Position numbers and translations under genes: made by a program. From assembly GCF_901765095.1 (NCBI RefSeq), contig NC_044034.1, forward strand, positions 62,690,339-62,754,338: a stretch of DNA of 64,000 nucleotides, written 5' to 3'. This document shows, piece by piece, positions 15,831 through 62,789 of this stretch. The notes beneath the pieces are model-generated. The model had not been told where the DNA came from. It ran no database searches and worked only from the letters and a program-made list of their open reading frames with translations. The DNA comes from Microcaecilia unicolor. Its lineage: Eukaryota. Numbering within the stretch: position 1 is the stretch's first letter; each line of letters begins with the position of its first letter.

Positions 15831-15946
15831 GCACAAATGGAAAATTGTGATTGCCAAAGCCAGATGTAATTGGTGTATGGAAATGGGAATTCACAAATCT
15901 CAGTATTTTATTTTTTTTTTTTACTATTGATGTTTTTTGAATCTAG

Positions 15947-19100: not shown

Positions 19101-19243
19101 GTGGTAAGAATAGACACACTTGATGCATTTAGTGATCTTCATTTGACAGCTGCATTTCTGTATTTGTTTTTGGTCAAGTAAAAGGTATAGCTTCATGTAA
19201 AGATTTCATGAAATGATCTTTTCCATTTATCTTTCATTTTTAG

Positions 19244-20089
19244 AAACTATTGTTACATGATGATATTTTTGAGGCCGAATCTGACAGTGATTGGCAAAGT
19301 GAATCAAAAGAAGCAGTAACGCCAAAGAAGAAGAAAAAGAAATCAAAAGATGAGGACGATAAAACCCAGGATGAGTTAAGGAAAAAAAAATCCAAATCTG
19401 GAAAAACAAAAGAACGATCCAGGTCAGACCACCAAGAGACCTCAGATAGCTTGGATTCAAGAATAAAGAAAAGAATTTCAGAAAGTAGAGAAGATTTAAA
19501 AGAGATCAAGAAGCAAAGAAAAGAAGAATCTAGAGAAGCCAAGAAATTGAAGAAAGAGATAAAAGATGCAAAGGTGAAACATAAAGAGGATTATAAAGAA
19601 AATAAGCAGCAAAAGGAAGTTCTTGACCTTCCGTTAGAGTCTGAGTCCAGTGTAGTCGATATGGTTTCTCAGTCACCTGACTCTGAGCAAATGGATTTCC
19701 TTAATGAGAGCACATTAGAGGACCAACAGAAAGCAGACACTAGCAAAGATAAGATGGAGCAAGAGACTATTGAGACAAACACCATTGCTGACGGGCAGCC
19801 GGATGGCATGGCAAGTTCAGAAGAGGACTCTGAGATCAAGATGAAGCGAAAGAAGAAAAAAATGAAAAAAATGGACAAAAAGGAAAGTAAAAGGTTGGAT
19901 ACTAAAGATTCCCAGTTTGAGAAGAAAAGTGCACACAAAAAGCAAAAACATATAGAGAAGGTGAAAGTTCCTGTAGTGCCAGAAAAGCCGCCACCGCCGC
20001 CGCCATCATCTGCACCTGCTCCAGTACAAAAGAGTTCAAAATTAAGCATTGATGAGAAGGGGCGTAAGCCCATGGAGTCCTTTGGGGAG
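19244..20089 (+). CDS. MPHOSPH8: MPHOSPH8 coding exon 3 (large K/E/S-rich low-complexity linker exon: ...DDIFEAESDSDWQSESKE...KKKKKKSK...ESESSVVD...PPPPPPSSAP...)
   Basis: Starts with the NDIFEANSDSDQQSE motif of human MPP8 and has the same lysine/glutamate/serine-rich composition and the conserved ESESSV motif. Acceptor ctttcatttttag|AAA. Donor GGGGAG|gtaaga. 846 nt, phase 0 to 0. Confidence 0.85.
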
Positions 20090-22739
20090 GTAAGAAATAC
20101 TAAATACATACAAAACCATCTTGGTTATGATAGATAATCTACTGGAGACTTTATTTGAAACACTGTATAGCTGTTGATATCTTTGAAAGGAAATGTGATG
20201 GATAAGAAATGGTGGTGGATAAGATATAGATATAATAGTACAAGTTAAAAGGTTATACGGTCTAATGGTGTGTACATTTTTCGCATTCTGCTGTCTAAAA
20301 AATATCATTCAAAATGCATTTTACTAAGTTTGTTTCACAGATCTACACATCAAACTCTATATTTGTTTCTCAAGGAGGTCGTGGAGTATCCTCTAGCCAG
20401 CCTGGTTTTCAAGACACCTACAACAAATGTGTGAGAGAGAGAGTTGCATACACTTCCTCTGTTACCTACCAGTCTATATATCATGTATATTTGTTGTGAA
20501 TGTCTTGAAAAACAGAATGACCAGGGGATTCTCCAGGAACTAGCTTGAGAGACATTAGTCTACATGTCCAACACAATTGTAAAAATTTTCAAAAAGTAAT
20601 TAATAAGAAACAGGGAAGTCCTGATTGCACATGTCTTCACACCTTTAACTCCAGTGTTTCTCAAAATTACCTTTATAAGGCTTATAATTTAAATAGTCAC
20701 ATGTGTCCAGTCACAGTATGTGAGCTGATTCAAGTACACCTGGATGAAGAATTAAGCTGTTTCTGTTGTGTGAAGTGAATCTGGAACAGGGGTAAAAACA
20801 TGGAGCTGCCAAAACAGTCTGGAATAGTTAATGGTACAAGTTCAGGGAAGGTTCTTAGAAAATTTCAGTTTGAATATTCTTTATGACATGGACAAGGTGT
20901 TTGATCAGATGTCATGGACCTCAATGGGTCAAGGAAAGTACTGAAAAAAGTTACTATGAGGCCTAAGATTACTTAAAAAGAAAATTAGAGAGCTGTGGCT
21001 GAAATAGGGGAAAATATTGACTGTTCAACAATTTCTCTACACCCATAGTCTGTGTGGGAAGGTGGCAAGAAGAAAACCACTGCCTAAGAAAAGCCATGTG
21101 ATTTGCCATGTAGCATTTGCAAAGAAGCAGTTGAAGTACGCTGCACACATGGAAGAGAGAGGGCTGTATTTGGTCTGATAACAACGAAGTGGAATATTTT
21201 GGTCTCAGTTCTATGATATGTGCAGTATGGGGAAAAACCCAAAGCAACACCCTTCCATCTTTTAAAAAAAGTGCATAAGGGCCTATGCGCATCCGATGTG
21301 CGCCAAATCTGCATTTCCACCCAGCTACCGTGTGCCCCGGGTGGTAATTCCGAATTTGTTGCTTGATGAAAACATGCGGTAGAAAATATTTTCTACCGCG
21401 GTGCGCCTACCCAGCAGTAAACGGCAGTTGGCGTTTGCTTCATGCTTGCCGTGTGGGTAGCATGTGAGATCTTACCGCTAGGTCATTGGGTGGCGGTAAG
21501 GTCTGAAGCTGAAAATGGATGCGCGCTGGTTTCAGTTTAAGCGCATATCGATTTTCCGGCCCCTTAAAAAAGGCCCTTTTTGCTAGACTCGGTAAAAAGT
21601 GGCCCAGCGTGCCCAAAAGATGCGCTTGCACTACTGCAGGCCATTCTTTACTGTGGTTTAGTAAAAGGACCCCTCTATTGAAGAGATGCTTTGCAACAGC
21701 AGGACCAGGAAGGTTTGTAAAGACTGAGGGAAAGATTCAAAGTACAATTCCAAAATAAAGCAAGCAATATAGGTACAAAATGTATTAAACACTGTAAAAC
21801 TATTTTTGTAAATCAATAAAATAATGCAATATAGGTAAAATTAGGCATTGAAAATATAATGGAAATCAGACTCAACATAGCCATAAGAACATATGACCAT
21901 ATTTACTTTTCTACCCGGATAGGAAACTGTAGGACCAATAATTCTAGTTTGTTTTGTTTTTCTTCTATAAGGGGCAGAAAACCTTTTAAACAGGTTGAGT
22001 TTCTCTGGGTTTTCAAGTGGCAATATTTTGGACTGATTTATCTTTTGTCTGTCAGAAATCATGTTATTGAGATTTTAGAAAAAAAATCTTAAAACTTAAA
22101 TTATTTCAAAAATTTGTATTGTGAAGCAATCTGTAATTTCTGATATGCCTAAGTACAATTTCAAATTTTCTCTGTTTATATTGCATTATTCATCATTTTG
22201 AATTTATTGCAGTTGTATGTTATTCCTTGAGTTTACTCCAGCTCTTGTTTTGTTAACTACTTAGATCTACAAGGTATTAGTAGTCTACAATACTTTTTGT
22301 TATCTTATGTTGAAAGCCTAGTACAGGGGAGGAAGTGACGTCACCAAGCAACATGGTCACTTGAAACGAGAGCTCCCGCTACCCCACGTTGATTTTCTGG
22401 CGGTATCGTAGTAAGCGTTCCACTTTACAGAACGATTCAGAAGATTCTGAGTTCTTTTGTTTAGGAAAAGCGGAAGAAGCATGAGTGCGCCCTTAAGCTT
22501 AGCTAAATATGCCTTTACCGGCGATTCGGCAGCGAACCATGTGGTGGGCACACTAGCAGCGGTCCCGAACCAGGCAAGTGGTTCGGTAGAAGAAGGGTCT
22601 CAAGACTTATTTCCTTCGGAGCATGAGCGGGAAGCCCCAGACTCTTTCAGGGCCTCAGAATTACGAGACTGGTTATTGGAGACTAGAGAAAAAGGCCCGT
22701 TTCTGACAGAAATGAAACGGGCGCTAGCAAGGTTTTCCT

Positions 22740-26399: not shown

Positions 26400-28200
26400 A
26401 AAAAATGATTGGGATTATAATAAACTGTAATAAAACAACCTGATTAAATACTGGTGACCAACATGATGAAAACCATGTAAGGTAGCAGAGCATAGTTTAC
26501 TCACCACTGAGGTCAGACTAACAGGTCTGTAATTCCCAACCTCCTCCTTTCTTTCTGCTCTTGTGCAGCTGAACCACATCTGGTTTTTTTTTCTCCAGTC
26601 CTCTGGAACCACTCCAGACTCTAAAGCATTGAAGAGGTTAGACAATAGAGCTGCCAGAATTTCTCCAAGTTCCTTGAGTACCCTCGGTTGTATCCCATCA
26701 GACCCCATCACTTTGTCTATTTTTAGCTTAACTAGCTCCTCACGAACGCAGACTTCTGAGAGTTGGTCCTGGTCTACCATATATCTATCCCTATTAGCAT
26801 TTGTTTTCTGCAGTCCTTTCCCAGCCTTTCATCTGTGAACACAGAACACAAATATTTAAGTTCAGCTTTATCCTTATCAGCTTCTACATATTCCCCCCCT
26901 TTGCCCTTGAGCCTCACAATGCCATTTTGGCACTTCCTTCTATCTCTTACATATTAAAAAAATGTTTTGTACCCCAATTTTAACTTATTGGTTGTCTTTT
27001 CTTCCATTTGCATCTTCACTTTCCTGACAGCTTTTTCAGCTACTCTTAGCTTTTCTAGGTATTTTTGTCTGTCTTCCTCTTTCTGAGTTGCCTTGTAATT
27101 TATGAAGGCTAATCTCTTTTTTTCCCTTACCTTTTCAGGTACTACGTTTGAGAACCAAAGTGGCCTTCTTTTCCTCTTACTTTTATGTACTTTTTTAACG
27201 TGAAGGTTTGTCCCCTTTAAAATAGCTCCTTTCAGACTTGCTCACTGATGTTCTACTTCCTTCAGCTGTTCGCATCCAACAAACTACTTTGAGATATTCC
27301 CCTATCTTGTCAAAGTTAATTCTTTTGAAGTCTAGGACCTTCAGTCTTGAATAAGCCCACTCTTCCTGTAATATTGGACTACACCATTTGGTGATCACTA
27401 GATGCCAATTAATCTCCCACCTTAACATCAGAAACACTCTCCCTGTTTGTAAGCACTAGATGTAGAATAGCTCCATCCCGCATGGGTTCTGTTACCAACT
27501 GCTGGAACAGTTCTTCCTGTAGAGAATCCAAGATCCCCTTTCTTCTAGTCAACCCTGCAGCAGGGATGCCCCAATCGACGTCCGGCATAGTAAAATCACC
27601 TGAATCCAAGATCCCCTTTCTTCTAGACAACCCTGCAGCAGGGATGCCCCAATCGACGTCCGGCATAGTAAAATCACCTGAATCCAAGATCCCCTTTCTT
27701 CTAGACAACCCTGCAGCAGGGATGCCCCAATCGACGTCCGGCATAGTAAAATCACCTGAATCCAAGATCCCCTTTCTTCTAGACAACCCTGCAGCAGGGA
27801 TGCCCCAATCGACGTCTGGCATAGTAAAATCACCTGAATCCAAGATCCCCTTTCTTCTAGACAACCCTGCAGCAGGGATGCCCCAATCGACGTCTGGCAT
27901 AGTAAAATCATCTGAATCCAAGATCCCCTTTCTTCTAGACAACCCTGCAGCAGGGATGCCCCAATCGACATCCAGCATAGTAAAATCACCTGAATCCAAG
28001 ATCCCCTTTCTTCTAGACAACCCTGCAGCAGGGATGCCCCAATTGACGTCCGGCATAGTAAAATCACCTATCAGTAGTGCGTCCCCTTTCCTAGCTATCT
28101 TGTGAATGTTTTCAATTAAATCTCTGTCCATTTCTTCTGACTGTGAAGGAGGCCTGTATATCACACCATTGTAAATACATTTTCCATTCCCTCTTTCCAG
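26400..28200 (-). mobile_element. CR1-like LINE 5' portion: endonuclease domain (28164-27409) and RT N-terminus (26780-26415)
   Basis: The EN signature reads IYRPPSQSEEMDRDLIENIHKIARKGDALLIGDF(T/N)MPDVNW ... LQEELFQQLVTEPMRDGAILHLVLTNRE. The RT N-terminus reads GSDGIQPRVLKELGEILAALLSNLFN.SLESGVVPEDWRK.N......R.E.VGNYRPVSLTSVVSK. Both match CR1/L2 ORF2 conserved blocks. Confidence 0.7.
27523..28070. repeat. 78-bp minisatellite, about 7 near-identical units (ccaagatcccctttcttctagacaaccctgcagcagggatgccccaatcgacgtccggcatagtaaaatcacctgaat)
   Basis: The period was measured directly: the unit start tgaatccaag recurs at 27601, 27679 and onward. 78 is a multiple of 3, so all three frames on both strands stay open across the array. 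That is why the ORF track shows 207/251/172-aa repetitive ORFs. Confidence 0.9.
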
Positions 28201-39984: not shown

Positions 39985-42900
39985 CTATGTGTTTTGGTTT
40001 TTTCCGTAAATTGTCTCAAATAGATGGGTCTTCAGTAATCTGTGGAAGGATGCTTGTTCGTGGATCGCTCTTAAGTTGCATGGCAGTGAGTTCCAACGTT
40101 GCGTGCTCGTGTGAGAAAAGGTTGACGCGTGTAGCGTCTTGTATTTCACGCCCTTGAAAGTAGGGAAATGGAGGTTGAGGTATGTTCGGGAAGATCTCCT
40201 AGCATTTCTGGGTGGTAGGTCAATCAACTCGGACATGTAGGCTGGGGCTTCGCCGTGAATGATCTTGTGGACTAGTGTGCATACCTTAAAGGTGATGCGT
40301 TCCTTCAGCGGAAGCCAGTGTAGTTTCTCTCGTAGTGGTGTTGCCCTTTCATATTTTGGTTTACCGAAGATGAGTCTGGCTGCTGTGTTCTGGGCTGTTT
40401 GAAGTTTCCTCAGTGTTTGCTCTTTGCAGCCTGCGTATAATGAGTTGCAGTAATCCAGATGGCTGAGGACGAGGGATTGCACTAGGCTACGAAAGACGAA
40501 TCTTGGGAAGAGTGGTCTTATCCTTTTCAGTTTCCACATGCAGTAGAACATCTTCTTAGTTGTGTTGTTTGCATGGGTTTCAAGTGTTATGTGGCGGTCG
40601 ATAGTGACTCTAAGAATTTTTAGCGTTTCTGAGATTGGAAGGTTTAGGTTTGGTGTATTTATCGCGTTGAATTCGTTGGTGTTGTATTGGGAGGTGAGTA
40701 CCAGGCATTGAGTTTTTTCTGCATTTAATTTCAGACGGAATGTGTCTGCCCATGTGTTCATGATGTTTAGGCTTTGATTGATTTCGTTGGAGATTTCTTT
40801 GATGTCTTGTTTGAAAGGGATATATATTGTCACATCATCAGCGTATATATGTGGATTGAGGTTATGGTTTGATAGGAGTTTTGCTAGAGGGATCATCATT
40901 AGGTTGAAAATAGTTGGTGAGAGGGGTGATCCTTGTGGGACTCCACATTCAGGTATCCATGCCTTGGACGTGGTTGAGTGTGATGTGACTTGATACGAGC
41001 GCATGGTTAGGAACCCCTTGAGCCAGCTTAGGACATTTCCTCCAATGCCGAAGTATTCAAGTATGTGTAGTAGGATTTCGTGGTCGACCATGTCGAAGGC
41101 GCTTGACATGTCAAATTGTAGGAGGAGTATATTGTTCCCGGTTGCTATTATTTGTTTAAATTTGGTCATAAGGGTGACTAGTACTGTTTCTGTGCTATGG
41201 TTCGACCGGAATCCGGATTGGGCATCATGCAGTATTGAGTGTTTGTTTAGATAGTTTGTGAGTTGTTTGGTTACCATCCCTTCAGTTAACTTAGTTATCA
41301 GTGGTATGGATGCTACTGGTCTGTAGTTGGTAATTTCGCTCAAGTTTTTCTTTGTATCCTTAGGAATTGGGGTGAGTAGGATTTTTCCTTTTTCTTTTGG
41401 GAAGAGTCCGTTTTGTAGCATGTAATTTACATGCTTCGTTAGGTCAATTGTGAATTGTTGAGGGGCTGATTTCATGAGGCTGTTTGGGCATGCGTCTAGT
41501 TTGCAGTTGGATTTGGCATATTTTTTGAGAGTATTAGAGATGAGGTCTTCTGGTATTGGTTCGAACTCGGTCCAGGTTCTGTCTGCTGGGTGTGCTCCTT
41601 CTTCTGGGTCCAGACAGTCTAGAAGAGTGGCGTATTCTATGGGACTGGTGGGTATTTTGTGTCGTAGTAGTATGATTTTTTCTTTGAAGTACTTCGCAAG
41701 GCTGTCGACGTCTGGTATGTTTTTACCGTTATTTGTAACTGGTGTGGTATCTAGCAGTTTGTTCACAAGGCTGAAGAGTTTGTGTGTGTCTTTGTAATTT
41801 GGTCCTATTATTGTTTTGTAGTGTTGTCTTTTTGTCTGTTTTATGGTGTATTTGTATTTTCTCCGAAGTCGTTTCCAGTCGTTTCGTGTTTGTTCGTCTT
41901 TCTTTTTGTTCCAAGCTCGTTCTAGTTTCCTGACTTGTGTTTTAAGTTTTTTCAGCTCTTCGGTGAACCATGGGTTTGCTTTTTTCCTGTGTGATGTTCT
42001 GGTTTGGGTTGGGGCGATTTTGTCTAATGTTGTTGTACATAGCTCATCCCATTCTTGGAGGAATTGGATGGTGTCAGCGTTTGTTGTCCATTCGTACTGG
42101 TAGATCTGTTGCCAGAATGTTGTGGAGTCTATTTTTCCTCTCGTTGTGTATGTTGTTCGCTCGGGTTTGTTGGTCGTGTTTAAGTGTGTTTTTCGCCAGC
42201 AGAGAGTGACATTTGCTTTATGGTGGTCTGACCATAGTGTAGGTGTCCAACTTGTGTCCGTGATCATGATATTTGAATCCGATTCGAATTTATTCGTTAT
42301 GATATCTAGTGTGTGTCCTTTTTCGTGAGTCGGTTGCATGTAAGGTGCTTGCAGATCCCAAAGTTTTAGGAATTCTTTGAACTCTCGTGTGCTTGGTGAG
42401 GTGTCATCTTCTAGGTGTAAGTTGATGTCTCCTAGTATGAGGATGTTTGAGGAAGATACGCAGGAATTCGAGACGAAATCCATGAGTTGTGTTTGGGAGT
42501 CTTGCCATTTCCCTGGAGGTCTGTAGAATAGGATTGTGTTGAGGTGGCCTGTTAGATTTGGATGGTTGATTCTTGTCGATGCAATTTTGAGATGTGGGGA
42601 GGTAGATTCACCCGTGATTGTGATGGTGAATTCAGGTTTGTAAATTATAGCTATTCCGCCTCCTCTTTTTATTCCATTCCTTGTCCAGTGGGTGATTTTG
42701 TATTCTGGTGGGCATATTTCTAAGATGGCTGGATCTGTAGGACTATGGAGCCAGGTTTCTGTGATAAATAGGAGGTCTAGTTTATCTGCGACGATCCAGT
42801 CTAGTATGTCTACTGAGTTCCTTACTGCTGATCTTGCATTGATGTATCCTAGATGAATTGAGCGATATGGTTCCAAGGGAGGGTTTGACGTGTTTATTTT

Positions 42901-43437
42901 TATTAGTTGTCTGTTCCTTCGGTGATTGAATTTGTTGTTGTTGTTGTTTTCCTCATTTTGTCGATTGTGCTCGTTTCCGGAGGCTATTCCTCTTGATTGG
43001 TTATTGTGTCTTTGGTTTGGTGGGTTGTCAAAAGGTTGTGCATATGATTGGTGGGTTGGTGGTGAGTGATTATGGGTGCTGTTTGGGGTGTTCATTGTGT
43101 CTGTGTGAGTGTTGTATGATTTGTAAGTAATTGGGTTGTTGTTGTCTGTGTTGTTTTGGTTTGTTAAGTTGTTCATAGGTTGTGCGTGGAGTTGGTGTGT
43201 TGTGGTTGGCTTGTTATCGATGCTCTTCAAGGTGGGCATTGTGTGTGTGTGAGTGCTGTGTAATTTGTGGGTTGTGGTGTTATTGTTGTCTGGGTCGTAG
43301 GTAATGTTTGCGTGAGAGAGTAGGGTGATGCAGAAAAAGGTTAGGAGTGTTTTACTGGTATTCATATCAGTATTTGAGGCGCTGTAGCAAGCAATCTGCA
43401 AGTTTATATTCAAAGCGAAGCAGGCCTGTAGTTGCAT
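39985..43437 (-). CDS. LINE ORF2-like polyprotein: endonuclease plus reverse transcriptase, 1150 aa, uninterrupted. The N-terminal ~170 aa are T/N/H-rich low complexity and may lie upstream of the true initiator.
   Basis: ORF-track translation. EN and RT motifs as listed for the parent element. No stops or frameshifts over 3.4 kb, which points to a young and potentially active copy. Confidence 0.8.
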   Translation of the reverse strand: MQLQACFALNINLQIACYSASNTDMNTSKTLLTFFCITLLSHANITYDPDNNNTTTHKLHSTHTHTMPTLKSIDNKPTTTHQLHAQPMNNLTNQNNTDNNNPITYKSYNTHTDTMNTPNSTHNHSPPTHQSYAQPFDNPPNQRHNNQSRGIASGNEHNRQNEENNNNNKFNHRRNRQLIKINTSNPPLEPYRSIHLGYINARSAVRNSVDILDWIVADKLDLLFITETWLHSPTDPAILEICPPEYKITHWTRNGIKRGGGIAIIYKPEFTITITGESTSPHLKIASTRINHPNLTGHLNTILFYRPPGKWQDSQTQLMDFVSNSCVSSSNILILGDINLHLEDDTSPSTREFKEFLKLWDLQAPYMQPTHEKGHTLDIITNKFESDSNIMITDTSWTPTLWSDHHKANVTLCWRKTHLNTTNKPERTTYTTRGKIDSTTFWQQIYQYEWTTNADTIQFLQEWDELCTTTLDKIAPTQTRTSHRKKANPWFTEELKKLKTQVRKLERAWNKKKDEQTRNDWKRLRRKYKYTIKQTKRQHYKTIIGPNYKDTHKLFSLVNKLLDTTPVTNNGKNIPDVDSLAKYFKEKIILLRHKIPTSPIEYATLLDCLDPEEGAHPADRTWTEFEPIPEDLISNTLKKYAKSNCKLDACPNSLMKSAPQQFTIDLTKHVNYMLQNGLFPKEKGKILLTPIPKDTKKNLSEITNYRPVASIPLITKLTEGMVTKQLTNYLNKHSILHDAQSGFRSNHSTETVLVTLMTKFKQIIATGNNILLLQFDMSSAFDMVDHEILLHILEYFGIGGNVLSWLKGFLTMRSYQVTSHSTTSKAWIPECGVPQGSPLSPTIFNLMMIPLAKLLSNHNLNPHIYADDVTIYIPFKQDIKEISNEINQSLNIMNTWADTFRLKLNAEKTQCLVLTSQYNTNEFNAINTPNLNLPISETLKILRVTIDRHITLETHANNTTKKMFYCMWKLKRIRPLFPRFVFRSLVQSLVLSHLDYCNSLYAGCKEQTLRKLQTAQNTAARLIFGKPKYERATPLREKLHWLPLKERITFKVCTLVHKIIHGEAPAYMSELIDLPPRNARRSSRTYLNLHFPTFKGVKYKTLHASTFSHTSTQRWNSLPCNLRAIHEQASFHRLLKTHLFETIYGKNQNT

Positions 43438-43722: not shown

Positions 43723-44666
43723 TACAATTTTTCTTTGTTTTACAGTTGAACCAGGCTGTTCACTTGCCTTGTATTTAGATCGAGGCAAGGCAATAGCAAT
43801 TAAATCATTATAGAAGATAGTGTTATTTGGCTAAGCATCTTAGTTGCCTTCTATGTACAATTTTTAAGATAATTAAAGCATCTGCATTAAATACTACTAC
43901 TACTACTTAACATTCCCAGAGCGCTACCGGGGTTATGCAGCGCTGCACAAAATAAACAAAGAAGGACATAACAGAAAGTGATGCTACTGTGGCATAGCAG
44001 CTCTTTACCTTCTATTTAGTGCTAGCATAGCAGAGTATAAGCTGTAAGTCCTAGCCGACATCGGTGCATGCAGTGAGGCAAAGCAAGCAGTTAATTGTAG
44101 TAGTTTTTTGGTAGTTTTTGGTTTTTTTTTTTTGGCCTTCACCACGTGGTCCTGGGTTCCTATGTGGTTCGTCTACAATTCTGCAGCGCTCGGAGTGCAA
44201 GGGGTAGGCGCACCTCACGCCGCCTCGGAAATCCGTGGGTGCCTCGGTTGGGGGGGGACTAGTGATGTGGACTAGTGATCAACCACCAGAGTTTTGGCAT
44301 TGGTGCAGTCAGCTACATGAGCTTTTGTTATCGAAGCGCAGGTTGGTGGGAATGTCCCTCAAAAAGAAGAAACAGTTCTTGAAGATCTGGGACCCGTACA
44401 TTCAATATGTATCGCCTAGGGCACGCGGTTTTATTATGAATTCTCTTTCGGGATGATCCGGGGGGGGGGGGGGGGGGAGGAGGAAGAGGACCTCTGTGTT
44501 TTTTTGTTTTGGTTTGTTTTTTTGTGTGTGTTACTGCGAGGGGGGAGGGAGTTAGACTGATCTTTTACCAGTAAAGTTGGGGTGCTTTCGTGGGTGGGAC
44601 TTACAAGAGGGAAAGATGGGGAAGGGTCAGGGTGGGAAAGAAAATATGAAAAGGTGGATGATATAC

Positions 44667-46258
<1,592 letters not shown>

Positions 46259-46895
46259 TAAGTATTAGCCTGCACATATTTGAACAAAGTAGGCCTGCAC
46301 TTGGAACTCTACAGAAATTGCTGAAATATTGTTCTATTCATTGTGTTTAATATATCACCAGTAAAAACCGTTGAAACGTGATACTTGTGAGTAAGATAGT
46401 GGTGGAATAGTTTGTGCCCTGGTTTCTAGCAAATTGGGACATTTTTCAAACTTCTGTAATTATTTTACCCTAGTAGGTTACTTTTTTTGCAGCTACCTTA
46501 TTGGCAAAGACTCATTTGTAAGCAAATTTAGCTACAACACCGCAATGATAATAGTCAATGATGACTATTATTTTTAAAAAGACAAACATTTTTTATCATT
46601 TTCTCTAACACAGGGATCACCGTTCATTATTTTTTCATCTTCATTTTAACCATTGAGCTTAACATTTACTTTTGAAAACAGGATAATTTCTAATTTAATC
46701 ATACCTATAGCCACACAATTGTCAGAACTTGTTAGGAAATGTACAAGGTATTCCCTGTTTTTGTTCCATTAACACTGTGAAGTCCTATTCCCTGCACACC
46801 ATGTGAAACATCTCACCATTGTAATTGCCTTTGCTAACCTTTACTATCTGGTTCCAGTATTCACTATCAGCTTCAGACATCTTCTCTTTTTACAG

Positions 46896-47153
46896 ATCCC
46901 AAGGAAACTAAAAATGCCTTTGATGCATTTCGATTAACACCAGAGGAAAGGGGTGAATTTATAGAGAATTACAGGAAAAAAGAGGAGTCTGCATTTGACT
47001 GTAAACCAACAGACGAATCCAAAGCTAGAGAAAATAAGCAAGGATACAAAGAAAGGAGGAGTACAAGAGAGGAAACAGATACATGGTCGATCATTGCTTC
47101 AGAAGGGGACCAAGAGGTAGTAGACAGCGTGCATCAAGTGCAGGACAGTTCTG
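46896..47153 (+). CDS. MPHOSPH8: MPHOSPH8 coding exon 5 (..PKETKNAFDAFRLTPEERGEFIENYRKKEE...ETDTWSIIASEGDQEVVDSVHQVQDSSG)
   Basis: Matches human KEIRNAFDLFKLTPEEKNDVSENNRKREE...ETDTWAYIAAEGDQEVLDSVCQADENSDG. Acceptor ctctttttacag|AT. Donor TTCTG|gtgagt. Phase 1 to 1. Confidence 0.9.
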
Positions 47154-47986: not shown

Positions 47987-48109
47987 ATGACAAACAAGTT
48001 GTTAGCTTGGGCATGGACTTACAGTTGGAATGGATGACACTGGAGGACTTTCAGAAGCATCTTGATGGAAAAGATGAAATTCTTCCAACCACAGAACCCA
48101 TATCAAACA
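47987..48109 (+). CDS. MPHOSPH8: MPHOSPH8 coding exon 6 (DDKQVVSLGMDLQLEWMTLEDFQKHLDGKDEILPTTEPISN)
   Basis: Matches human RQQILSLGMDLQLEWMKLEDFQKHLDGKDENFAATDAIPSN. Acceptor ttctaatttag|AT. Donor CAAACA|gtaagt. Phase 1 to 1. Confidence 0.9.
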
Positions 48110-48289: not shown

Positions 48290-49146
48290 GTAACTGTTAT
48301 GTACATGATCTGTTTTCTAAGCTTGGAGGGCAGGATTAACATTATTATGGGTAAGGCTTTGAAATGATTTAAGTTCTCATAAAACATATTTCAGAACACA
48401 CAATGAAGGTGATGTTATAAACAGGGTGCTTAGGCAAGGAGCCTTTTGTACAATTGCCCATTGTTATATATGCTCCAAGGAAGAATCGGCACATACGTGA
48501 TTCTGTCTCTACTCTGCCCATTGTCTTTATTTAGAAACACCTGTGCATATAGAGGGTACATAACAGGGTGTGTAGTTTAAACCTATTATATAAAGAAAAG
48601 TAGGTACCTATTTTTCTTTATAAAATACAAACTCAAATGGGTGAAAAGGTGTGATCACTTAACTCAGTCCCATAGATGATACAAAAGTCTGGTTTATGTA
48701 TATGCGTGGGTGTTCCACCCGTACTGTGCCCAAATTCCGGCTATCTGTATGCCCACCAGCAAAGTATGTGTTATCAAATCATGGTGCTTACTTTTCCACT
48801 AGTCAATATAGGCCAATTATGCATGCAAATGACTAGAATGTGGCTTCTTATAAAATTTCTGCCATATTGTGTAAGATTAGGTGTTCTGTTTTCTAAAAAC
48901 CTGCTTTTATTCACATATACACCTGGGCAATTGAGCATGTAAGACATTGTTATAAAATTACCTCCAGTATATAATTGTGCTTTGTTTTGATTGCTGCAAA
49001 CCTGATTTTGTAATTTTAATGGTTATTTCCTGTTGTGTTTGCTTCCAACAATACTTTTCAGTCTTTAAATTTAGTTACCTGCACAAAAGTTCATAAACCA
49101 CATCTTAGAAGATAGAATTTTAATTTGTAGAATGCAATTATTTCAG

Positions 49147-49287
49147 GATTCAAGCGGAATGACTCTAGTAATGCTTGCTGCAGCCGGTGGACATGATGAC
49201 CTCCTTCGACTCCTTATTAAGAAAGGGGCAAAGGTGAATGCTAGACAAAAGAATGGAAACACAGCCTTAATACATGCGGCTGAAAAA
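49147..49287 (+). CDS. MPHOSPH8: MPHOSPH8 coding exon 8 (first ankyrin repeat: DSSGMTLVMLAAAGGHDDLLRLLIKKGAKVNARQKNGNTALIHAAEK)
   Basis: 46 of 47 residues are identical or similar to human DSSGMTLVMLAAAGGQDDLLRLLITKGAKVNGRQKNGTTALIHAAEK. Acceptor caattatttcag|GAT. Donor TGAAAAA|gtaagt. Phase 0. Confidence 0.92.
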
Positions 49288-50114
49288 GTAAGTTGCCACT
49301 GCTTCATTAAAGCATCATTGTGGTAATCTGCTGCTGTATGTGGGTTTCCTGGTGTCTGCTTGTTCCAGTTCATACTTTGGGAATTTTAGGTGTTCTTATA
49401 AAAAGCATTGCAAGAACACTTTATGGTGATATCTTGTCCATAAATCTTTGGCCTATTTTCACAGCCAAAACAATGCAAGGTACTGTCTTGTACTTTGGGA
49501 GGATCTAAAAAAAATGTGGTGTTCCAGTTCCATATCACAAGTTTCTGGCTTGTGTGCACTGTCAACAATGGACAGTTCAATGCTTATAAAAATTCTCTTT
49601 GTAAATAAACCATATCTTCTCTCTTTGTTTTATCATAGGACCTGATCACACTGTAGTTCCATGATAAAATAGAGAGAGAAGAGCTGGTTTATATACAGAG
49701 TGATTATGCTCTAGCTCTTCTGGATTTGTGATTGCTTTGGAGTTTATGCTTATAAGAATACCATATGAATATAGTTTGTCTTCAGTGAGTATATACCTAT
49801 CTATTGTATTTGATTACACACCTCCTTAGAAAGTTTGAAGCGTTGTACAATAACATTTTCATAAAATAACATCATAGTAAAATAAATTACAATAATCCTT
49901 CCCCCTTCTCAACTGTCCATAATTTGTATCTTCCTGTTCAACCTGAACTCTATATTAGTTACCAGATAAAAAAAAATCACTTTTTTTTTCATGCACTCCA
50001 CTATAAAGAGAGAGATTCCAGGTATATATTTGATGTAATAAGAGTGGGACAGTATCATAAAATGGGAGATCACATAATGTAAAAGATGTGCAGAACAGGC
50101 ATACATGCTCTAGC

Positions 50115-51900
50115 TTGACTATAGAGCAGAGGTTTTCATCCCAGTTCTCTGGCACACCCAGCCAGTTGGGGTTTTCAGGATATCCCCATTGAATATAATG
50201 TAAATTCACCTACTGAGTATACACTTAGATCTAGTTACAACATTTATTACTACAGCAGTAACTGTTCTAGTCTTTTTTTTTTTTTTTTATCAATACAAAA
50301 TGCTTTATTAAGTTTCCATAAACACATAAGTCTCTGATCCTTAATATCAATCGCACACACTCCCCATACATACCAATCTAACTTAAAACAATTCTTCATA
50401 CATTTCCTCTACCGCTAGAGAATCCATGTCTGCCAACTAAATTAGTATACAGAACAGTTCTTTATGCATTTCTTAACTTTTTAAACACATGACAGAGTTT
50501 TTCTTTCAAATTCCCGTCACTTCAAATCATTATGTATTTACTAAACAGCCTGTAGTTTTCATAGGCAATCTTATAACTAGTTAACTTGCTCTGTCGGCTT
50601 TCCCAAGTAAATAAACCTTCACTTCGAGTCATTTAAATCTGTTGTTTAAATCATTACATGGTTGTTATGCAAAACTCTAGTTTCCGAGGATAACTTTACA
50701 ACTTGCAAGCCGATTGATACTGTCAGCTCACTCAAACACTGGTGCATGCGCACAACTGCTTCTCTACCTGTTTAATGCTGATAAATAGTATCACGTGTTA
50801 TATCACTGGCCATTCTACTTCTTTGTTTAAGCCTAACGGAGTCACTGCTCTCCAGAAAATGTTCAATAGTGACTCCGTTAGGCTTAAACAAAGAAGTAGA
50901 ATGTCTATGGATATAACACGTGATGCTATTCATCAGCATTAAAGAAGTGGAGAAGCAGTTATGCGCATGCACCAGCATTTGAGTGAGCACGGCACCATTG
51001 TTTTACGACTGTCAGGAGACTCGTCCTGAATATGCAGCTTAATAGTGGTTTTGAAACATAGCATGTTTGAAATACATTTTGGTATAGCAGAGGATTTGGA
51101 TTTAAATTTGTAGGAGTCCTTTTTAATATCAGTCTATGCTGTTTAGTTGAACCCCTGATGATGCTTATAGCGAAACTCAGTGACTGTGTTGTGATTAGCA
51201 TGGAAGAGGAGTGAGGCAGGAGATTTGAACCTGCAACTGGAGAAGTAATACAAGGACAACCACAGCAAGAGAAAAAGATTAAAAAACTGTGTAGCAATAT
51301 TTGGTTTGCCTAAAAAAAAACTGACAGTATTGGTCGGCTTACAAGTTGTAAAGTTGTCCTCGGAAACCAGAGTTTTGCATGACAACCATGTAATAATTTA
51401 AACAACAGATCTAAGTAACTTGAAGTGAAGGTTTATTTGCTTGGGAAAGCCGAAAGAGCAAGTTAACTGGTTAGAAGACTATCTATGAAAACTACAGTTT
51501 GTTTAGTAAATACATAATGATTTTGAAGTATTTGAATTGACGGGAATTTGAAAAAAAGACTCTGTCATGTGTTTAAAAAGTTAAGAAATGTATAAAGAAC
51601 TGTTCTGTATACTAATTTAGTTGGCAGTCATGGATTCTCTAGTGGTAGAGCAAATGTACAAAGAATTGTTTTAGATTGGTATGTATGGGGAGAGTGTGTG
51701 ATTGATATTAAAGATTGGAAACTTTTATGTGTTTATGGAAATTTAATAAGCATTTTGTATTGATAAAAAAAAGTCTAGAACAGTTACTGTTGTTGTAATA
51801 AGCATTGAATTTAATGGGGATATCCTGAAAACCCCAACTGGCTGGGTGTACCCTGAGGACTGGGTTGAAAACCCCTGCTGTAGAGAGTAAATTTGTGGGA
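50115..51900. repeat. Large imperfect palindrome or foldback element. Two inverted arms of about 750 bp each (about 50115-50870 and 50880-51900) are separated by a ~20-bp spacer. Arm 2 contains a ~300-bp insertion (about 51000-51300) and is longer.
   Basis: ORFs 50742-50942(+) and 50772-50990(-) encode near-identical peptides, which is the signature of an inverted repeat. Direct reading shows gctcactcaaacactggtgcatgcgcacaactgc... at 50722 mirrored by ...gcagttatgcgcatgcaccagcatttgagtgagc ending at 50993. The outer arms (for example aaaacaattcttcatacatttcctctaccgctagagaatccatg versus catggattctctagtggtagagcaaatgtacaaagaattgtttt) continue the mirror out to ggggttttcaggatatcccc / ggggatatcctgaaaacccc. 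Confidence 0.85.
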
Positions 51901-52139
51901 CGTACCCAGATAACCTTCTGGGATGTTATTAGGGAACCTGACACTTAGTATAAATTACCAAAAGAACAGCACTTCACCAAGCTCTCTTATTAGGTGATAT
52001 CATGTCAGAAACAAATGTTCCTGCTTATCCCTAGATTCAAGCTCACAACGCCCAAACAATGAATGAACTAACTTCGCACCAAGGATATTATAAAAATAGA
52101 GTTCTCGTTTATTTATAAATGCAGCAAGAACCGAATGAA

Positions 52140-52900
52140 AATGCAAGTAATGAAACAGTAGGCTAGGAAAGCGAATAGAATGTTGGGTATTATTAGGAAA
52201 GATATGGAAAACAGGTGTGAGGATGGTATAATGCCGTTGTATCGCTCCATGGTGCGACCGCACCTTGAGTATTGTGTTCAGTTCTGGTCGCCGCATCTCA
52301 AGAAAGATATAGTAGAATTAGAAAAGGTGCAGCGAAGGGCGACTAAATTGATAGCGGGGATGGGACGACTTCCCTATGAAGAAAGACTAAGGAGGCTAGG
52401 GCTTTTCAGCTTGGAGAAGAGACGGCTGAGGGGAGATATGATAGAGGTATATAAAATAATGAGTGGAATGGAACAGGTGGATGTGAAGCGTCTGTTCACG
52501 CTTTCCAAAAATACTAGGATTAGGGGGCATGCGATGAAAGTACAGGGTAGTAATTTTAAAACAAATCGGAGAAAATATTTCTTCACCCAACACATAATTA
52601 AACTCTGGAATTCGTTGCCGGAGAACGTGGTGAAGGCGGTTAGCTTGGCAGAGTTTAAAAAGGGGTTAGACGGTTTCCTACAGTCCATAAACCACTACTA
52701 AATGGACTTGGGAAAAATCCACAATTCCAGGAATAACATGTATAGAATGTTTGTACGTTTGGGAAGCCTCCACTTTCCTAACAACTTACTTTCTGGTCAC
52801 CAAAAAGATAGATGGATTCTGCTTCATTCTAGACCTCAGAGCTCTGAACAGTATCTAGCCAAAAATATGTTTCAGGATGGTTTCCCTGCACACCCAACTC
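52140..52900 (+). mobile_element. CR1-like LINE 3' fragment (RT C-terminus plus 3' UTR)
   Basis: ORF 52180-52701 reads ...YRSMVRPHLEYCVQFWSPHLKKDIVELEKVQRRATKLIAGMGRLPYEERLRRLGLFSLEKRRLRGDMIEVYKIMSGMEQVD..., the canonical CR1 C-terminal motif. Confidence 0.8.
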
Positions 52901-54300: not shown

Positions 54301-56827
54301 AGGTCCTCCTTGAAGACCTGTCTGTTTGAGAAAGCTTTTAACTTACAGTTGGATGAGTTTTCATCTTTCAGGATTCACTGATGTTTGCAAGTCTTTCCCC
54401 TGACCCTTTTTGTTTTTTTTATTTTATTATTTGTTGTTGGCTATTACTCATACTGTCAGTCTGTTTTCTAGTCCTTCCACATTTTTAATCCTGTTTTCCT
54501 TCTCTGAGTGTGCTATGGCAGAGCTTCTTAGTTCCGATCCTAGAGGTCCAGAAGCAGGCCAGATTTTCAGGATATCCACAATGAATATTCATATGAGAGA
54601 GTTGTATGCACTGCCTCCTTGGTATGCAAATCTCTGTTATGCATATTCATTGTGGACATCCTGAAAACATGGCCTGTCTACTACTACTACTACTACTATT
54701 TAGCATTTCTATAGCGCTACAAGGCGTACGCAGCGCTGCACAAACATAGAAGAAAGACAGTCCCTGCTCAAAGAGCTTACAATCTAATAGACAAAAAAAA
54801 AAAAATAAAGTAAGCAAAATAAGCTTGAACCACCACAATTTTATCTCCTTCATTAAGAAAAGTTACCAGGAGTATACTCTAGCTAAGACTCAAGAAATGC
54901 TAATAAATCCACACTCTCTGAAGGACCCATAACAGCCAGAGCCCCTTCCTGGTCATCAACATGAACTTTAACATTTAACAAAAACTATTTCTTTGGCTCT
55001 GAGCAAAGCCAAGACATCTCAAAAGTATTTCCTTACCAATATTTCAGCTGAAAGGTAATGAGTAAAAGGAAAATGAAGAAACTCAATATTCCTAATTTCT
55101 AAGATGATTCTCCATAGCCTTCAACTTCTGATGCAGAGAGAGGCTATCCTTAATTGCTAAAAGTTTGGTAGATTGTAAAGAAAAAATGTTTAAATCCATA
55201 GGCTGCATATGAGAATAAGCTACCTTATCTCTTTAAACTTAGATACAGATTCAGAAGTAAAACAGCACAAGTGAGGAACAATATTCTTTAATAAATCCTC
55301 TATGAAGGAAATAACTGCCCATATATCTAAAAGTAGTATCTTGTAATCTCTAGTACAGTGTCAATAGGAAAATGTACTGCTTTAGGCAAAATGGAGGGGG
55401 GTATAGAGAAATTAAAGAATTCCTACCACATTTGCACGAGAGTCAGTCAGTAGTGATAGATGAGGTTGAGTTCTATCAGTACTTCAGACTGGAATTGAGT
55501 AGCCCTGTGCTATAATGTTCTTTTCTTTGTTTTAATTTTGATTTTAATTATTGTGTGGGAAGAAAGACTAGTATGTCAAACAAAATAAACCATAAACCAA
55601 GATTTTTCGAGAGTGGGGCATCCGCTTGATAGACCTTTTTTGCCACTTATCTCAACAAGAAAGTTCCTCAGTTCTGCTGCAGACTAGGGATACACGGTAA
55701 ACTAGCCTTTGCTGCTTCCCTCCTCATTTGGGAAAAGGTTTTCCATATGTGTATCCTCGATTGCCTTTCATAGCAAACTTTCTTGAAACTTAAGCAGGAT
55801 AAAGGATCATGATTCTTATCACACCATACTGGCTGCAGCAAATATGGTTCCCTCTACTTCTGGAGCTAGCCTCTGAACTGCTTTCTGACCCTTATCACTC
55901 AGATCAAAGGGTCCCCCTTGCATCCCTACTTCTAGGCCCTAGCCCTCACGGTTTGGGTATTGAGAGGTTAGAAGTGGATCCTTTGAACTTACAGGAGCAT
56001 GCCTTTCATTTCTTCCTGCTTCCAGGAGAGAAACAGGTATCTCAGTGCAGTTGAATCATATTGTGTAGAGAGTAAGCCCTTCTCTGTTCAGTCTTCAGTT
56101 AATCGCTTCATAAAGGGCTTGCTTCCATTAAAACATCCCATCAAACCCCTAGCAATGTCATGAGATTTCAACGTTGTGCATAATCGGCGCATGAAAGCTC
56201 CCTTTGTGCCACTTGATACCTATTGTCTGAAGTACCTGACCTGGAAGGTCTTGCTTTTGGTGGCAGTCACTTCAGCTACAAGCCTCAGTAGCTGATCCAC
56301 CTTACACTATTTTACAACCACAGGGTGGTTTTGTGCACACATCCTAAGTTCCTTCCTAACGTAATGTTGGAGTTCTATCTTAACCGATCAATTATTGTGC
56401 CAGCATTCTTCCTGAAGCCACTTGCACATCAAGGAGAAAGCACACTGAGGACTGCAAGCGAGCCTTGGTCTTCCATATGGATCAGACTAAAATCCATAGA
56501 AAGTCCACCCAATTTTGGGGGATTTTTTTTTTGACCCCCAACAGCATGGGGGCTGCTACCGGTAAAAGCACTCTTTGATTTGGCTAGAAGATGGAATATC
56601 CTTCACTTGCACCCAGGCTGGTCTGATTCATGTCGTGGCTCACAGTGTCCCAAGAGTAAAATAGATTTTATGCTGCTTACCTTAGAAATAAGCAGTGGAT
56701 TTTTCCAAATCCATCTCAATCATGGCTTATGGACTTTAAGAAATTAGCCAAATCTCTTTTAAACCCTGCTAAGCCAACTGCTTTACCACATTCTTTGGCA
56801 ATGAGTTCCAGAGTTTAATTACACATT

Positions 56828-61845: not shown

Positions 61846-61932
61846 AATTTTCTCACAACAGTAGCAGTTTTATTGGAAGCTGGTGCACACCTGAACATTC
61901 AGCAGAATAATGGAGAAACAGCTTTAATGAAG
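61846..61932 (+). CDS. MPHOSPH8: MPHOSPH8 coding exon 9 (ankyrin repeat 2 start: NFLTTVAVLLEAGAHLNIQQNNGETALMK)
   Basis: Matches human NFLTTVAILLEAGAFVNVQQSNGETALMK. Acceptor atttttttttag|AAT. Donor AATGAAG|gtatgt. Phase 0. The remaining 3' exons lie beyond the window. Confidence 0.9.
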
Positions 61933-62789
61933 GTATGTATTCATGCCTTCTTGCTTTTGTTCTGTATGTTATGGCTCATTGCCTGCCTCCTGCACAGCAG
62001 TATACAATGGACAGGGTCAAAGTACACAGCAAAACAATCCAAAAAAGAAGCACAAAAGGCTCTCAAGAAATGGTACAAGTGTGCTTTATTTATGACCCAA
62101 CACAGGGCATGTTTCGGAGTAAAACAATGCCTGCCTCAGGGGTCAGCTCTAAAATCAACTTAACACAAAACACATGCGCTGTTACTCAAATTGTTGTGTT
62201 CAGTATATTGTCAGTCCGCTCTGGAAACTGAGAAGCCCAAACTTAATGCGGAGCAAACCGCCACGGAAATTTGCGTCTTGCCTTGTGTTCATAGTGTGTG
62301 TGATGATGGAAGACTGGATTATCTCTTGCATTTACAAAGTGACCTTTTTACAAGGGATCAGAATTTTGGGTGGTCATTCTTATCTGACCTTTTTTTTCCT
62401 TTATTACTTTGGTGTCCATAACAAGGAATTGTTCAGGAAATAGTTTAAAAATAAAATTGTAATTAATGTCTTACTTTTTCCCTGCACTGATAGTTTTTAT
62501 TAAATTCCTCCCACCTGCTACAGATGCAAAACAGGTGAAAAGCATTGCTGAGTTATGTCCCCATGCCTCTGCTTCCTCCACCTTCTCTAGAATATTCTAG
62601 AATCTAATCTTTGTGTTTGTTTTTGAGAGCTCATTAGACTGAATCTCTCTCTTGGACTGAGGTAAAACTGCTGTGATACTCTGCCTGAATTTGGTCTCTG
62701 TACTGTTCTCGGCACTTTCTTCTTTTCTTTCTGTTCATTTCCTCCATTTTCCAAAGTTTTATTGTTCACATTATTTTTATTTTTGTTAC

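What the first reader, a model, noticed from the sequence alone, without database searches (positions are those of the whole stretch)
50115..51900. A ~1.8-kb palindromic foldback structure inside an MPHOSPH8 intron
Two arms of about 750 bp with roughly 90% identity sit in inverted orientation around a ~20-bp spacer. The mirror extends over the full length: mirrored ORFs encode near-identical peptides on the two strands. The outer ends carry the same ggggttttcaggatatcccc terminus seen in small palindromic MITE-like elements at 15640-15830 and 54530-54680. One arm carries a ~300-bp insertion at 51000-51300. Such a structure would form a long hairpin in the pre-mRNA, making it a potential dsRNA, ADAR-editing or endo-siRNA substrate. 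It may also be unstable during replication. It could be a foldback-type transposon or an inverted duplication of a MITE.
Basis: seen in the sequence. Interest (0 to 1): 0.6.

Follow-up and report, generated by a model that had tools for sequence, protein, structure and literature searches.

The report
Old foldback-shaped hAT transposon in intron
The 1.75-kb palindrome is real. It is most likely a dead, non-coding "cut-and-paste" (hAT-type) transposon whose two halves mirror each other, lying in an intron of MPHOSPH8; this is an ordinary kind of genomic relic with no demonstrated function.

Summary
Window 50127-51877 (1751 bp) is one palindrome: left arm 50127-50846, 21-nt spacer 50847-50867, right arm 50868-51877. 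The arms are about 90% identical at aligned positions (K2P about 0.10 along the whole length). The right arm carries an extra 332 bp (50989-51320).

The element ends in CAGRGG...CCYCTG and is flanked by an 8-bp direct repeat, CTATAGAG / CTGTAGAG (7/8; empirical P about 6e-4). TA sits at repeat positions 4-5. These are the marks of Buster-type hAT transposons.

The outer ~77 nt of each arm match a short hairpin MITE family with three other copies in the window. The inner ~640 bp matches nothing else in the window, has no detectable coding capacity and has no tandem subrepeats.

The element lies in the 12.6-kb intron between two ankyrin-repeat exons of MPHOSPH8 (49147-49287 and 61846-61932, + strand), 840 nt after the splice donor.

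Best reading: a non-autonomous hAT element of foldback shape, made by inverted duplication of one end of a longer parent (template switching during repair), and now old and inert. As RNA it should fold into a long imperfect duplex (MFE -1062 kcal/mol against -399 for shuffles), but editing or siRNA production is untested. Genome-wide copy number and orthologous empty sites could not be examined. Interest is low.

The parts
50119..50126 (.). Left target-site duplication, CTATAGAG
   Evidence: Direct repeat of 51878-51885, 7/8 identical. The empirical chance of >=7/8 at this spacing in the window is 6.4e-4. TA at positions 4-5 fits the hAT-Buster target nnnTAnnn.
50127..50203 (+). Left terminal region homologous to the short MITE family. 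Terminus CAGAGG; core GGTTTTCAGGATATCC at 50170-50185.
   Evidence: nhmmer with a profile of the family's ends gives E=1e-17. Motif search. Alignment to the other copies.
50127..50846 (.). Left arm of the palindrome (720 bp)
   Evidence: K2P to the right arm is 0.09-0.12 in every segment.
50273..50309 (-). On the minus strand: AATAAA (50304-50309), a 15-nt gap, then an A16 run (50273-50288). The mirrored right-arm copy is AATAAG at 51745-51750 plus A8 at 51765-51772.
   Evidence: Sequence; TRF. It is the only one of 9 A-runs >=12 nt in the window with a poly(A) signal within 40 nt upstream. AATAAA frequency is 1.0e-3 per position.
50847..50867 (.). Central 21-nt spacer (the loop of the hairpin)
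   Evidence: (I3: 21 nt between the arms).
50868..51877 (.). Right arm of the palindrome (1010 bp; 678 bp without the extra segment)
50989..51320 (+). 332-bp segment present only in the right arm, ending in A9. It is either an insertion into the right arm or a deletion from the left arm.
   Evidence: Alignment gap. No flanking direct repeat. No other copy in the window. No Pfam or Rfam match.
51803..51877 (-). Right terminal region homologous to the short MITE family. Terminus CAGGGG on the minus strand; core at 51818-51833.
   Evidence: nhmmer E=1.5e-18; motif search.
51878..51885 (.). Right target-site duplication, CTGTAGAG
49147..49287 (+). Upstream MPHOSPH8 ankyrin-repeat exon (AG acceptor, GTAAGT donor). 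The palindrome starts 840 nt after the donor.
   Evidence: Splice sites read.
61846..61932 (+). Downstream MPHOSPH8 ankyrin-repeat exon that closes the 12,558-nt intron
   Evidence: tblastn 79% identity over 29 aa, E=8e-10. Splice sites read.

Best explanation
Window 50127-51877 is a single non-autonomous DNA transposon of the hAT superfamily (Buster-type target preference) with a foldback, or hairpin, architecture. Almost the whole element consists of two inverted copies of one ~0.7-1.0-kb transposon end.

Shown:
- The termini are CAGRGG.
- An 8-bp target-site duplication with central TA flanks the element.
- The outer ~77 nt of each arm belong to a short hairpin MITE family that is also present elsewhere in the window.
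- There is no coding capacity.
- Arm-to-arm divergence is uniform, at about 10%.

Inferred:
- A longer parent element of this family carried about 0.7-1 kb of unrelated internal sequence. That sequence may itself have been retro-derived, because it ends in AATAAA-N15-poly(A) 30-70 nt inside the terminus.
- The parent underwent a one-end inverted duplication. During gap repair or replication, the nascent strand at one terminal repeat switched template to the other terminal repeat and copied the same subterminal region in reverse. This left a 21-nt loop.
- A hAT transposase supplied in trans made the 8-bp duplication, either for the finished palindrome or for its parent at this site.
- Since then the arms have drifted apart by about 0.05 substitutions per site each. 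One arm gained or lost 332 bp, and the element is now inert.

Because it sits in an MPHOSPH8 intron, it is transcribed with the pre-mRNA and should fold into a ~600-bp imperfect duplex. That makes it a plausible but unproven ADAR substrate. The most likely net effect is neutral.
For: - Palindrome anatomy.
- Flanking repeat: 8-bp direct repeat, 7/8 identical, exactly at the CAGRGG/CCYCTG ends; no other repeat length fits.
- Target preference: TA at positions 4-5 of the 8-nt flank at 4 of 5 family ends, representing three independent insertion sites (P about 1e-4 to 3e-4). This matches the Buster-family consensus nnnTAnnn. The TIR start CAG(G/A)GG matches that described for the hAT MITE Mar (PMC3517528).
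- Family relationship: the ends are homologous to three other short hairpin MITEs in the window.
- Single origin of the palindrome: divergence is uniform across the MITE-like part (K2P 0.118+-0.043), the outer interior (0.092+-0.015) and the inner interior (0.108+-0.032).
- No coding capacity: no Pfam hit and no homologue among 5.8 billion proteins for all frames of the arms.
- Published precedents: long-TIR and whole-hairpin MITEs arising by template switching during synthesis-dependent strand annealing (PMC3814204). A foldback-like element sharing only its TIR tips with a MITE: Tetris and DAIBAM (PMC4079207).
- RNA folding: MFE -1062 kcal/mol against -399+-9 for shuffles, with 528 arm-to-arm pairs.
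Against: - No second copy of the long form, and no autonomous hAT partner, could be found. The interior has no other match in the 64-kb window. None of the searchable public collections contains this organism or the motif. Mobility of the long form as a unit is therefore unproven.
- The superfamily call rests on one 7/8 duplication plus target-site preference.
- The short MITE at 15635-15831 shows no recognisable duplication (2/8).
- The MITE homology stops at about 77 nt, slightly short of a full short-MITE arm. This fits equally well a short MITE whose centre was later replaced.
- The A-run after AATAAA is unexpected for a pure DNA-transposon end.
Confidence: 0.62

Rival explanations
1. In-situ, two-step origin. 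An ordinary ~190-bp hairpin MITE of this family inserted here and made the 8-bp duplication. Later, foreign DNA (for example a 5'-truncated polyadenylated retrocopy) landed in its central loop. A local replication template switch between the MITE's own inverted arms then duplicated that insert in reverse. On this reading the long palindrome never transposed and is unique in the genome.
For: - Nearly the full short-MITE arm (about 77 of 85-90 nt) is retained at both ends, and the novel sequence begins where the MITE's central loop would be.
- The interior has no other copy in the window, whereas the short MITE has three.
- An AATAAA-N15-A16 tail lies at the outer end of the interior.
Against: - It needs two or more separate rare events at one site.
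- Divergence of the MITE-like part equals that of the interior, so any in-situ event must have followed insertion quickly.
- No direct repeat flanks the supposed retro-insert; its flanks are inverted, not direct.
- The final step is mechanistically the same template switch as in the best explanation.
Confidence: 0.25
2. Snap-back retrocopy. During target-primed reverse transcription into the MITE loop, the first-strand cDNA folded back on itself and primed its own copying. This produced a palindromic insert, poly(T)...loop...poly(A), in one step.
For: - The interior is bounded by T16 on the left and A8 on the right, each preceded inward by AATAAA or AATAAG at the canonical 14-15 nt distance.
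- A short 21-nt loop joins the two copies head to head.
Against: - The symmetry continues beyond the A/T runs for about 30 nt of non-MITE sequence (TTATTAC...CTAGAC) before the MITE part begins. A snap-back cDNA alone does not explain this.
- There is no target-site duplication around the insert.
- The poly(A)-signal coincidence has a post-hoc chance of about 2% and could be accidental in 64% A+T sequence.
- I know of no described natural example.
Confidence: 0.06
3. Assembly artefact: a chimeric or missed-adapter long read produced a false palindrome.
For: Palindromes with short spacers are a known artefact class in long-read data (general knowledge). No reads were available to check.
Against: - The arms differ by about 10% substitutions, with a transition bias typical of real decay (44 transitions against 16 transversions).
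- They also differ by at least 8 indel events and a 332-bp asymmetry. An artefact would give near-identical arms.
- The element has proper transposon termini and a flanking target-site duplication.
Confidence: 0.02

Closest known systems
Non-autonomous hAT (Buster/Charlie-type) MITEs, e.g. Drosophila Mar (PMC3517528); from memory, also the human MER1-type Charlie derivatives such as MER5A
   Same: Terminus CAG(G/A)GG, an 8-bp target-site duplication with central TA (nnnTAnnn), no coding capacity, and presence in gene introns.
   Different: hAT elements normally have 5-27-bp terminal repeats. Here the inverted symmetry runs the full 720 bp of each arm, and at 1751 bp the element is too long to be called miniature. 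No autonomous partner was identified.
Foldback-like elements that share only TIR tips with a MITE: Tetris/DAIBAM in Drosophila virilis (PMC4079207); Galileo of the P superfamily (PMC4168063)
   Same: A non-coding element made almost entirely of two long inverted arms. The extreme ends are shared with a much shorter MITE in the same genome. The foldback shape arose secondarily within an ordinary TIR-transposon superfamily.
   Different: Tetris, Galileo and the classic FB elements carry tandem subrepeats inside the arms, and their duplications are 7-10 bp. Here there are no subrepeats, the duplication is 8 bp, and the termini are hAT-like.
Whole-hairpin or long-TIR MITEs formed by template switching during gap repair (the model in Yang et al. 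2013, PMC3814204; families cited there include Arabidopsis Hairpin and the C. elegans PAL elements)
   Same: The arms are an inverted duplication of one subterminal region, joined by a short loop. This shape cannot be produced by simple internal deletion of an autonomous element.
   Different: Those examples are Tc1/mariner or other superfamilies and are mostly under 1 kb. For this element the parent is not available, so the mechanism is inferred rather than reconstructed.
Intronic inverted-repeat SINE pairs (e.g. inverted Alu pairs) as ADAR substrates
   Same: An intronic, transcribed, several-hundred-bp imperfect duplex at about 90% complementarity.
   Different: This is a single element rather than two independent insertions. 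No expression, editing or small-RNA data were examined.

Membership tests
hAT superfamily (non-autonomous member) | 8-bp target-site duplication | tested here: met
   CTATAGAG / CTGTAGAG directly abut the termini, 7/8 identical. Empirical P(>=7/8) = 6.4e-4. Repeat lengths 2-7 and 9 give at most 3 matches, and length 10 gives 6 of 10.
hAT superfamily (non-autonomous member) | Short terminal inverted repeats beginning YARNG (here CAGRGG) | tested here: met
   Termini are CAGAGG (50127) and CAGGGG (reverse complement of 51872-51877). This is the same start as the Mar hAT MITE, CAG(G/A)GG.
hAT superfamily, Buster family | Target-site consensus nnnTAnnn | tested here: met
   TA at positions 4-5 in both flanks of the palindrome and in the left flanks of the MITEs at 15635 and 54519: 4 of 5 ends. 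TA dinucleotide frequency is 0.069, giving P about 1e-4. Consensus taken from PMC3517528.
hAT superfamily | Related autonomous element encoding a hAT transposase (BED finger, RNase-H-like DDE, hAT C-terminal dimerisation domain) | not testable with these tools
   The element itself has no coding capacity. No ORF of 90 aa or more in the window looked hAT-like by eye, though only a few were scanned against Pfam.
MITE | Small size (under about 0.8 kb), TIRs, TSD, non-coding, high copy number | tested here: not met
   TIRs, TSD and non-coding status are met. However, the length is 1751 bp, and no second copy of the interior occurs in 64 kb. The short relatives at 15635-15831, 20364-20556 and 54519-54679 do qualify.
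Foldback (FB) elements in the strict sense | Long inverted arms that make up most of the element | tested here: met
   Arms of 720 and 1010 bp around a 21-nt spacer.
Foldback (FB) elements in the strict sense | Arms built of tandem subrepeats; 9-bp (Mutator-like 8-10 bp) duplications | tested here: not met
   TRF finds only a T16 run in 50000-52000. A 9-bp duplication gives 0/9 matches.
Tc1/mariner or PIF/Harbinger MITEs | TA or TWA target-site duplication at the termini | tested here: not met
   At the family-defined termini the 2-bp and 3-bp flanks do not match (AG/CT and GAG/CTG). A TA/TA reading appears only if each terminus is moved 3 nt outward, and the 8-bp repeat already accounts for that. 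The TIRs of the Tc1 element at 44664-46260 are unrelated.
Processed retrocopy (for the interior of the arms) | Poly(A) tail preceded by AATAAA, flanking direct repeats, identifiable source gene | tested here: inconclusive
   AATAAA-N15-A16 is present. The flanks are inverted, not direct. No source gene or coding remnant was found.
MPHOSPH8 intron (location claim) | Flanked on both sides by exons of the same gene on one strand | tested here: met
   Exons at 7859-7993, 15953-16132 and 19217-20155 match proteins named MPP8 and PDB MPHOSPH8 chromodomains.

The most novel reading that the evidence does not exclude
The interior of the palindrome is a polyadenylated RNA copied into DNA as a hairpin. 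Reverse transcriptase snapped back on its own first-strand cDNA inside a MITE loop and created a perfect palindromic retrocopy in one step. The host hAT machinery could then have mobilised the result. This would be a natural route by which retrotransposition manufactures long inverted repeats and foldback transposons.
Probability: 0.06. Interest if true: 0.55.

Novelty: new member of a known kind. Interest (0 to 1): 0.2.

Why it matters
It matters little in itself. Long-armed hairpin derivatives of cut-and-paste transposons are well documented, and this copy is old and non-coding.

It has modest value in three ways:
- It is a clean vertebrate example of a hAT-type element with whole-length inverted arms that shares only its tips with a short MITE family. 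This supports the view that foldback shape arises repeatedly by one-end inverted duplication.
- It is a predictable source of a ~600-bp intronic double-stranded RNA in MPHOSPH8, a gene whose product (from general knowledge) belongs to the HUSH transposon-silencing complex. That makes it a convenient place to look for A-to-I editing if RNA data exist.
- The poly(A)-like tail inside each arm is a small unexplained clue about how such elements acquire internal sequence.

Tried and rejected
1. Protein homology. All three + strand frames of the whole element, which cover both orientations of the arms, were searched against 5.8 billion proteins, with no hit. The same frames and five individual ORFs overlapping the element were searched against Pfam. 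The only match was a sub-threshold chance hit (DDR1-2_DS-like, 17 bits against a cut-off of 27). The arms therefore carry no transposase remnant or captured coding exon that I could detect.

2. Rfam on 49500-52500 gave only sub-threshold hairpin-like matches (MIR158 at 35.8 bits against a gathering score of 67, and others). I rejected these as generic hairpin similarity.

3. Family copies elsewhere. Exact-pattern scans found nothing for a 28-nt stretch conserved in both arms (metagenome contigs). They also found nothing for the MITE core in viral, metagenome and prokaryotic genome contigs. A full-text literature search for the motif found nothing. These collections simply do not hold this organism.

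4. Organism identification and orthologous loci. The best MPP8 homologues in the protein collection are only 46-48% identical, and the exact Tc1 transposase is not on record. No orthologous intron could be fetched. From memory, the SINE-like repeats in the window resemble caecilian repeats. This is an untested lead only.

5. Tc1/mariner (TA) and Harbinger (TWA) classifications were considered and rejected on the flank comparison.

6. Two head-to-head copies of a complete element: rejected, because there are no terminus-like sequences at the centre.

7. Target-site duplications of the older MITE copies (15635-15831, 20364-20556) were too decayed to be informative.

8. Whether the 332-bp segment is an insertion or a deletion could not be decided. 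There is only 1 nt of junction microhomology and no flanking repeat.

Full report
**1. The observation**

The region is a true, continuous palindrome.

- Self-comparison by blastn gives inverted matches covering 50125-50200/51803-51879, 50244-50726/51321-51801 and the self-complementary centre 50726-50988 (E from 3e-20 to 1.5e-152). The repeat finder reports the same arms at 87-96% complementarity with 21 nt between the innermost arms.
- A global alignment of the left arm with the reverse complement of the right arm runs without a break from the ends to the centre. 606 of the 720 left-arm bases are matched, and there are four perfect runs of 32-36 nt.
- The only large interruption is a 332-bp segment (50989-51320) present in the right arm only.
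- Refined coordinates: left arm 50127-50846, spacer 50847-50867, right arm 50868-51877. The element is 1751 bp long.
- The 'mirrored ORFs' follow automatically from the symmetry and match nothing.

**2. Ends and flanks**

- A profile built from the ends of the three MITE-like sequences finds, in the window, the two ends of the palindrome, both ends of 15635-15831, the left end and part of the right arm of 54519-54679, and an older copy at 20364-20556.
By alignment to the family, the termini are CAGAGG at 50127 and CAGGGG on the reverse strand of 51872-51877.
- Directly outside them lie CTATAGAG (50119-50126) and CTGTAGAG (51878-51885), an 8-bp direct repeat with one mismatch. Across the window, pairs of 8-mers at this spacing match at 7 or more positions with frequency 6.4e-4. 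No shorter repeat length fits: lengths 2-7 and 9 give at most 3 matches, and length 10 gives 6 of 10.
- Both copies have TA at positions 4-5. So do the left flanks of the MITEs at 15635 and 54519. That is 4 of 5 ends at three independent sites, against a TA frequency of 0.069, giving P about 1e-4.
- TA-only (Tc1/mariner) and TWA (Harbinger) duplications do not fit at the family-defined termini. The intact Tc1 element 4 kb upstream has unrelated terminal repeats.

**3. What the arms contain**

- Only the outer ~77 nt of each arm is MITE-like. The remaining ~640 nt has no other copy in the window, even at low stringency.
- It contains no tandem subrepeats.
- It has no Pfam match, no homologue among 5.8 billion proteins in any frame, and no Rfam match above threshold.
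- Arm-to-arm divergence is uniform: K2P 0.118+-0.043 for the MITE-like part, 0.092+-0.015 for the outer interior and 0.108+-0.032 for the inner interior. Transitions outnumber transversions 44 to 16. The whole palindrome therefore dates from essentially one time and has decayed like neutral DNA.
- If the arms were identical at birth, each has accumulated about 0.05 substitutions per site. At typical vertebrate neutral rates (general knowledge, about 1-2.5e-9 per site per year), that is tens of millions of years. This is a rough inference.
- One unexpected detail: reading from the centre outward, each arm ends in AATAAA (AATAAG in the right arm), 14-15 nt, then an A-run (A16 left, A8 right), 30-70 nt before the MITE-like part. 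Of nine A-runs of 12 nt or more in the window, only this one has a poly(A) signal within 40 nt upstream. At the observed AATAAA frequency the coincidence has a post-hoc chance of about 2%. The interior may therefore derive from a polyadenylated RNA that had been retroposed into the parent element.

**4. Genomic context**

- Exons at 7859-7993, 15953-16132 and 19217-20155 on the + strand match proteins that their sources name MPP8, and they match PDB entries for the M-phase phosphoprotein 8 chromodomain.
It aligns colinearly to further + strand exons:
  - about 46901-47140
  - 47995-48102
  - 48194 to about 48290
  - 49144-49287 (90% identity, E=2e-20)
  - 61852-61938 (79% identity, E=8e-10)
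- Matches this strong cannot come from a wrong recollection.
- Splice sites define the last two exons as 49147-49287 and 61846-61932.
- The palindrome therefore lies in a 12,558-nt intron between two ankyrin-repeat exons, 840 nt downstream of the donor site.

**5. Mechanism**

The element cannot have arisen by simple internal deletion of an autonomous hAT element, because such elements have 5-27-bp terminal repeats.

- The anatomy is one end duplicated in reverse, joined by a 21-nt loop, with symmetry from the very terminus to the centre. This is what template switching of a nascent strand from one terminal repeat to the other produces during gap repair. Yang et al. proposed this mechanism for long-TIR and whole-hairpin MITEs (PMC3814204).
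- The relation between this element and the short MITEs (shared tips, unrelated interiors) parallels Tetris and DAIBAM in Drosophila virilis. There the foldback shape is regarded as a secondary development within ordinary TIR superfamilies (PMC4079207).
- Open question: did the duplication happen in a parent element elsewhere, with the finished palindrome then transposing here? Or did it happen at this locus after a parent had inserted? The 8-bp duplication is compatible with both.
- A more exotic alternative, a snap-back cDNA giving a palindromic retrocopy, would explain the T-run/A-run boundaries. It does not explain the ~30 nt of non-MITE symmetry outside them or the lack of a direct repeat around the insert.
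- An assembly artefact is very unlikely, given about 10% substitutions, at least 8 indel events and the 332-bp asymmetry between the arms.

**6. Consequences**

- Transcribed with the MPHOSPH8 pre-mRNA, the element is predicted to fold arm on arm. The MFE is -1062 kcal/mol for 1767 nt, against -399+-9 for ten mononucleotide shuffles. There are 528 arm-to-arm base pairs, and stacked helices reach 73 pairs when G-U pairs are allowed.
- That is within the range of known ADAR substrates (general knowledge), so A-to-I editing is plausible. No expression data could be examined.
- Nothing suggests selection on the structure: the arms are decaying at a uniform, neutral-looking rate.

**7. Comparison and novelty**

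- The element passes every hAT (Buster-type) test that can be applied to a non-autonomous copy.
- It fails the size criterion for a MITE.
- It fails two criteria of classic foldback elements (subrepeats and 9-bp duplication).
- It is best described as a foldback-shaped non-autonomous hAT element: a new member of a known kind.
- I could not check Dfam/Repbase or the rest of the genome, so the family may already be catalogued.

**8. Limits**

None of the sequence collections available here contains this organism. Copy number, the parent element, the autonomous partner and orthologous empty sites are all unexamined. These are the decisive missing data.

Noticed in passing
window 44664-46260: A Tc1/Sleeping-Beauty-like transposon that looks complete. 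It has 202-nt terminal inverted repeats that are 99% complementary and an uninterrupted 340-350-aa ORF (45021-46043, +) with HTH_SB, HTH_Tnp_Tc3_2 and DDE_3 domains. It looks young and possibly active, and it sits in the MPHOSPH8 intron just before the exon at 46901.
   Followed up: partly
window 39985-43437 (- strand): An uninterrupted 1150-aa LINE ORF with an endonuclease/exonuclease/phosphatase domain and a reverse transcriptase. This is a potentially intact non-LTR retrotransposon inside the same gene.
   Followed up: partly
window 15635-15831: A short hairpin MITE of the same hAT-type family lies only about 120 nt upstream of the chromodomain-coding exon of MPHOSPH8 (15953-16132). Its flanks show no recognisable 8-bp duplication (2/8).
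   Followed up: partly
window 50273-50309 and 51745-51772: Each arm of the palindrome carries a poly(A)-signal-like AATAAA/AATAAG, followed 14-15 nt later by an A-run (A16 / A8). This hints that the interior came from a polyadenylated RNA. It is the only one of nine long A-runs in the window with such a signal.
   Followed up: partly
window 54519-54805: A family MITE (54519-54679) is cut off at its right side by a SINE-like unit that starts with (ACT)6 and ends in an A-rich tail (54680 to about 54805). The MITE's right terminus is not found downstream.
   Followed up: partly
window 27409-28164 (- strand): An ORF containing about seven tandem copies of a 26-aa unit (GDFTMPDVDWGIPAAGLSRRKGILDS). 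It looks like an internally amplified piece of a retroelement protein.
   Followed up: no
window 49594-49703: A separate small hairpin (48-nt arms, 81% complementary, 14-nt loop) lies about 300 nt after the donor site of the same intron. It has only a weak, sub-threshold Rfam miRNA-like score.
   Followed up: no
window 20364-20556: An old, heavily decayed fourth copy of the MITE family lies about 200 nt downstream of the large MPHOSPH8 exon (19217-20155).
   Followed up: partly
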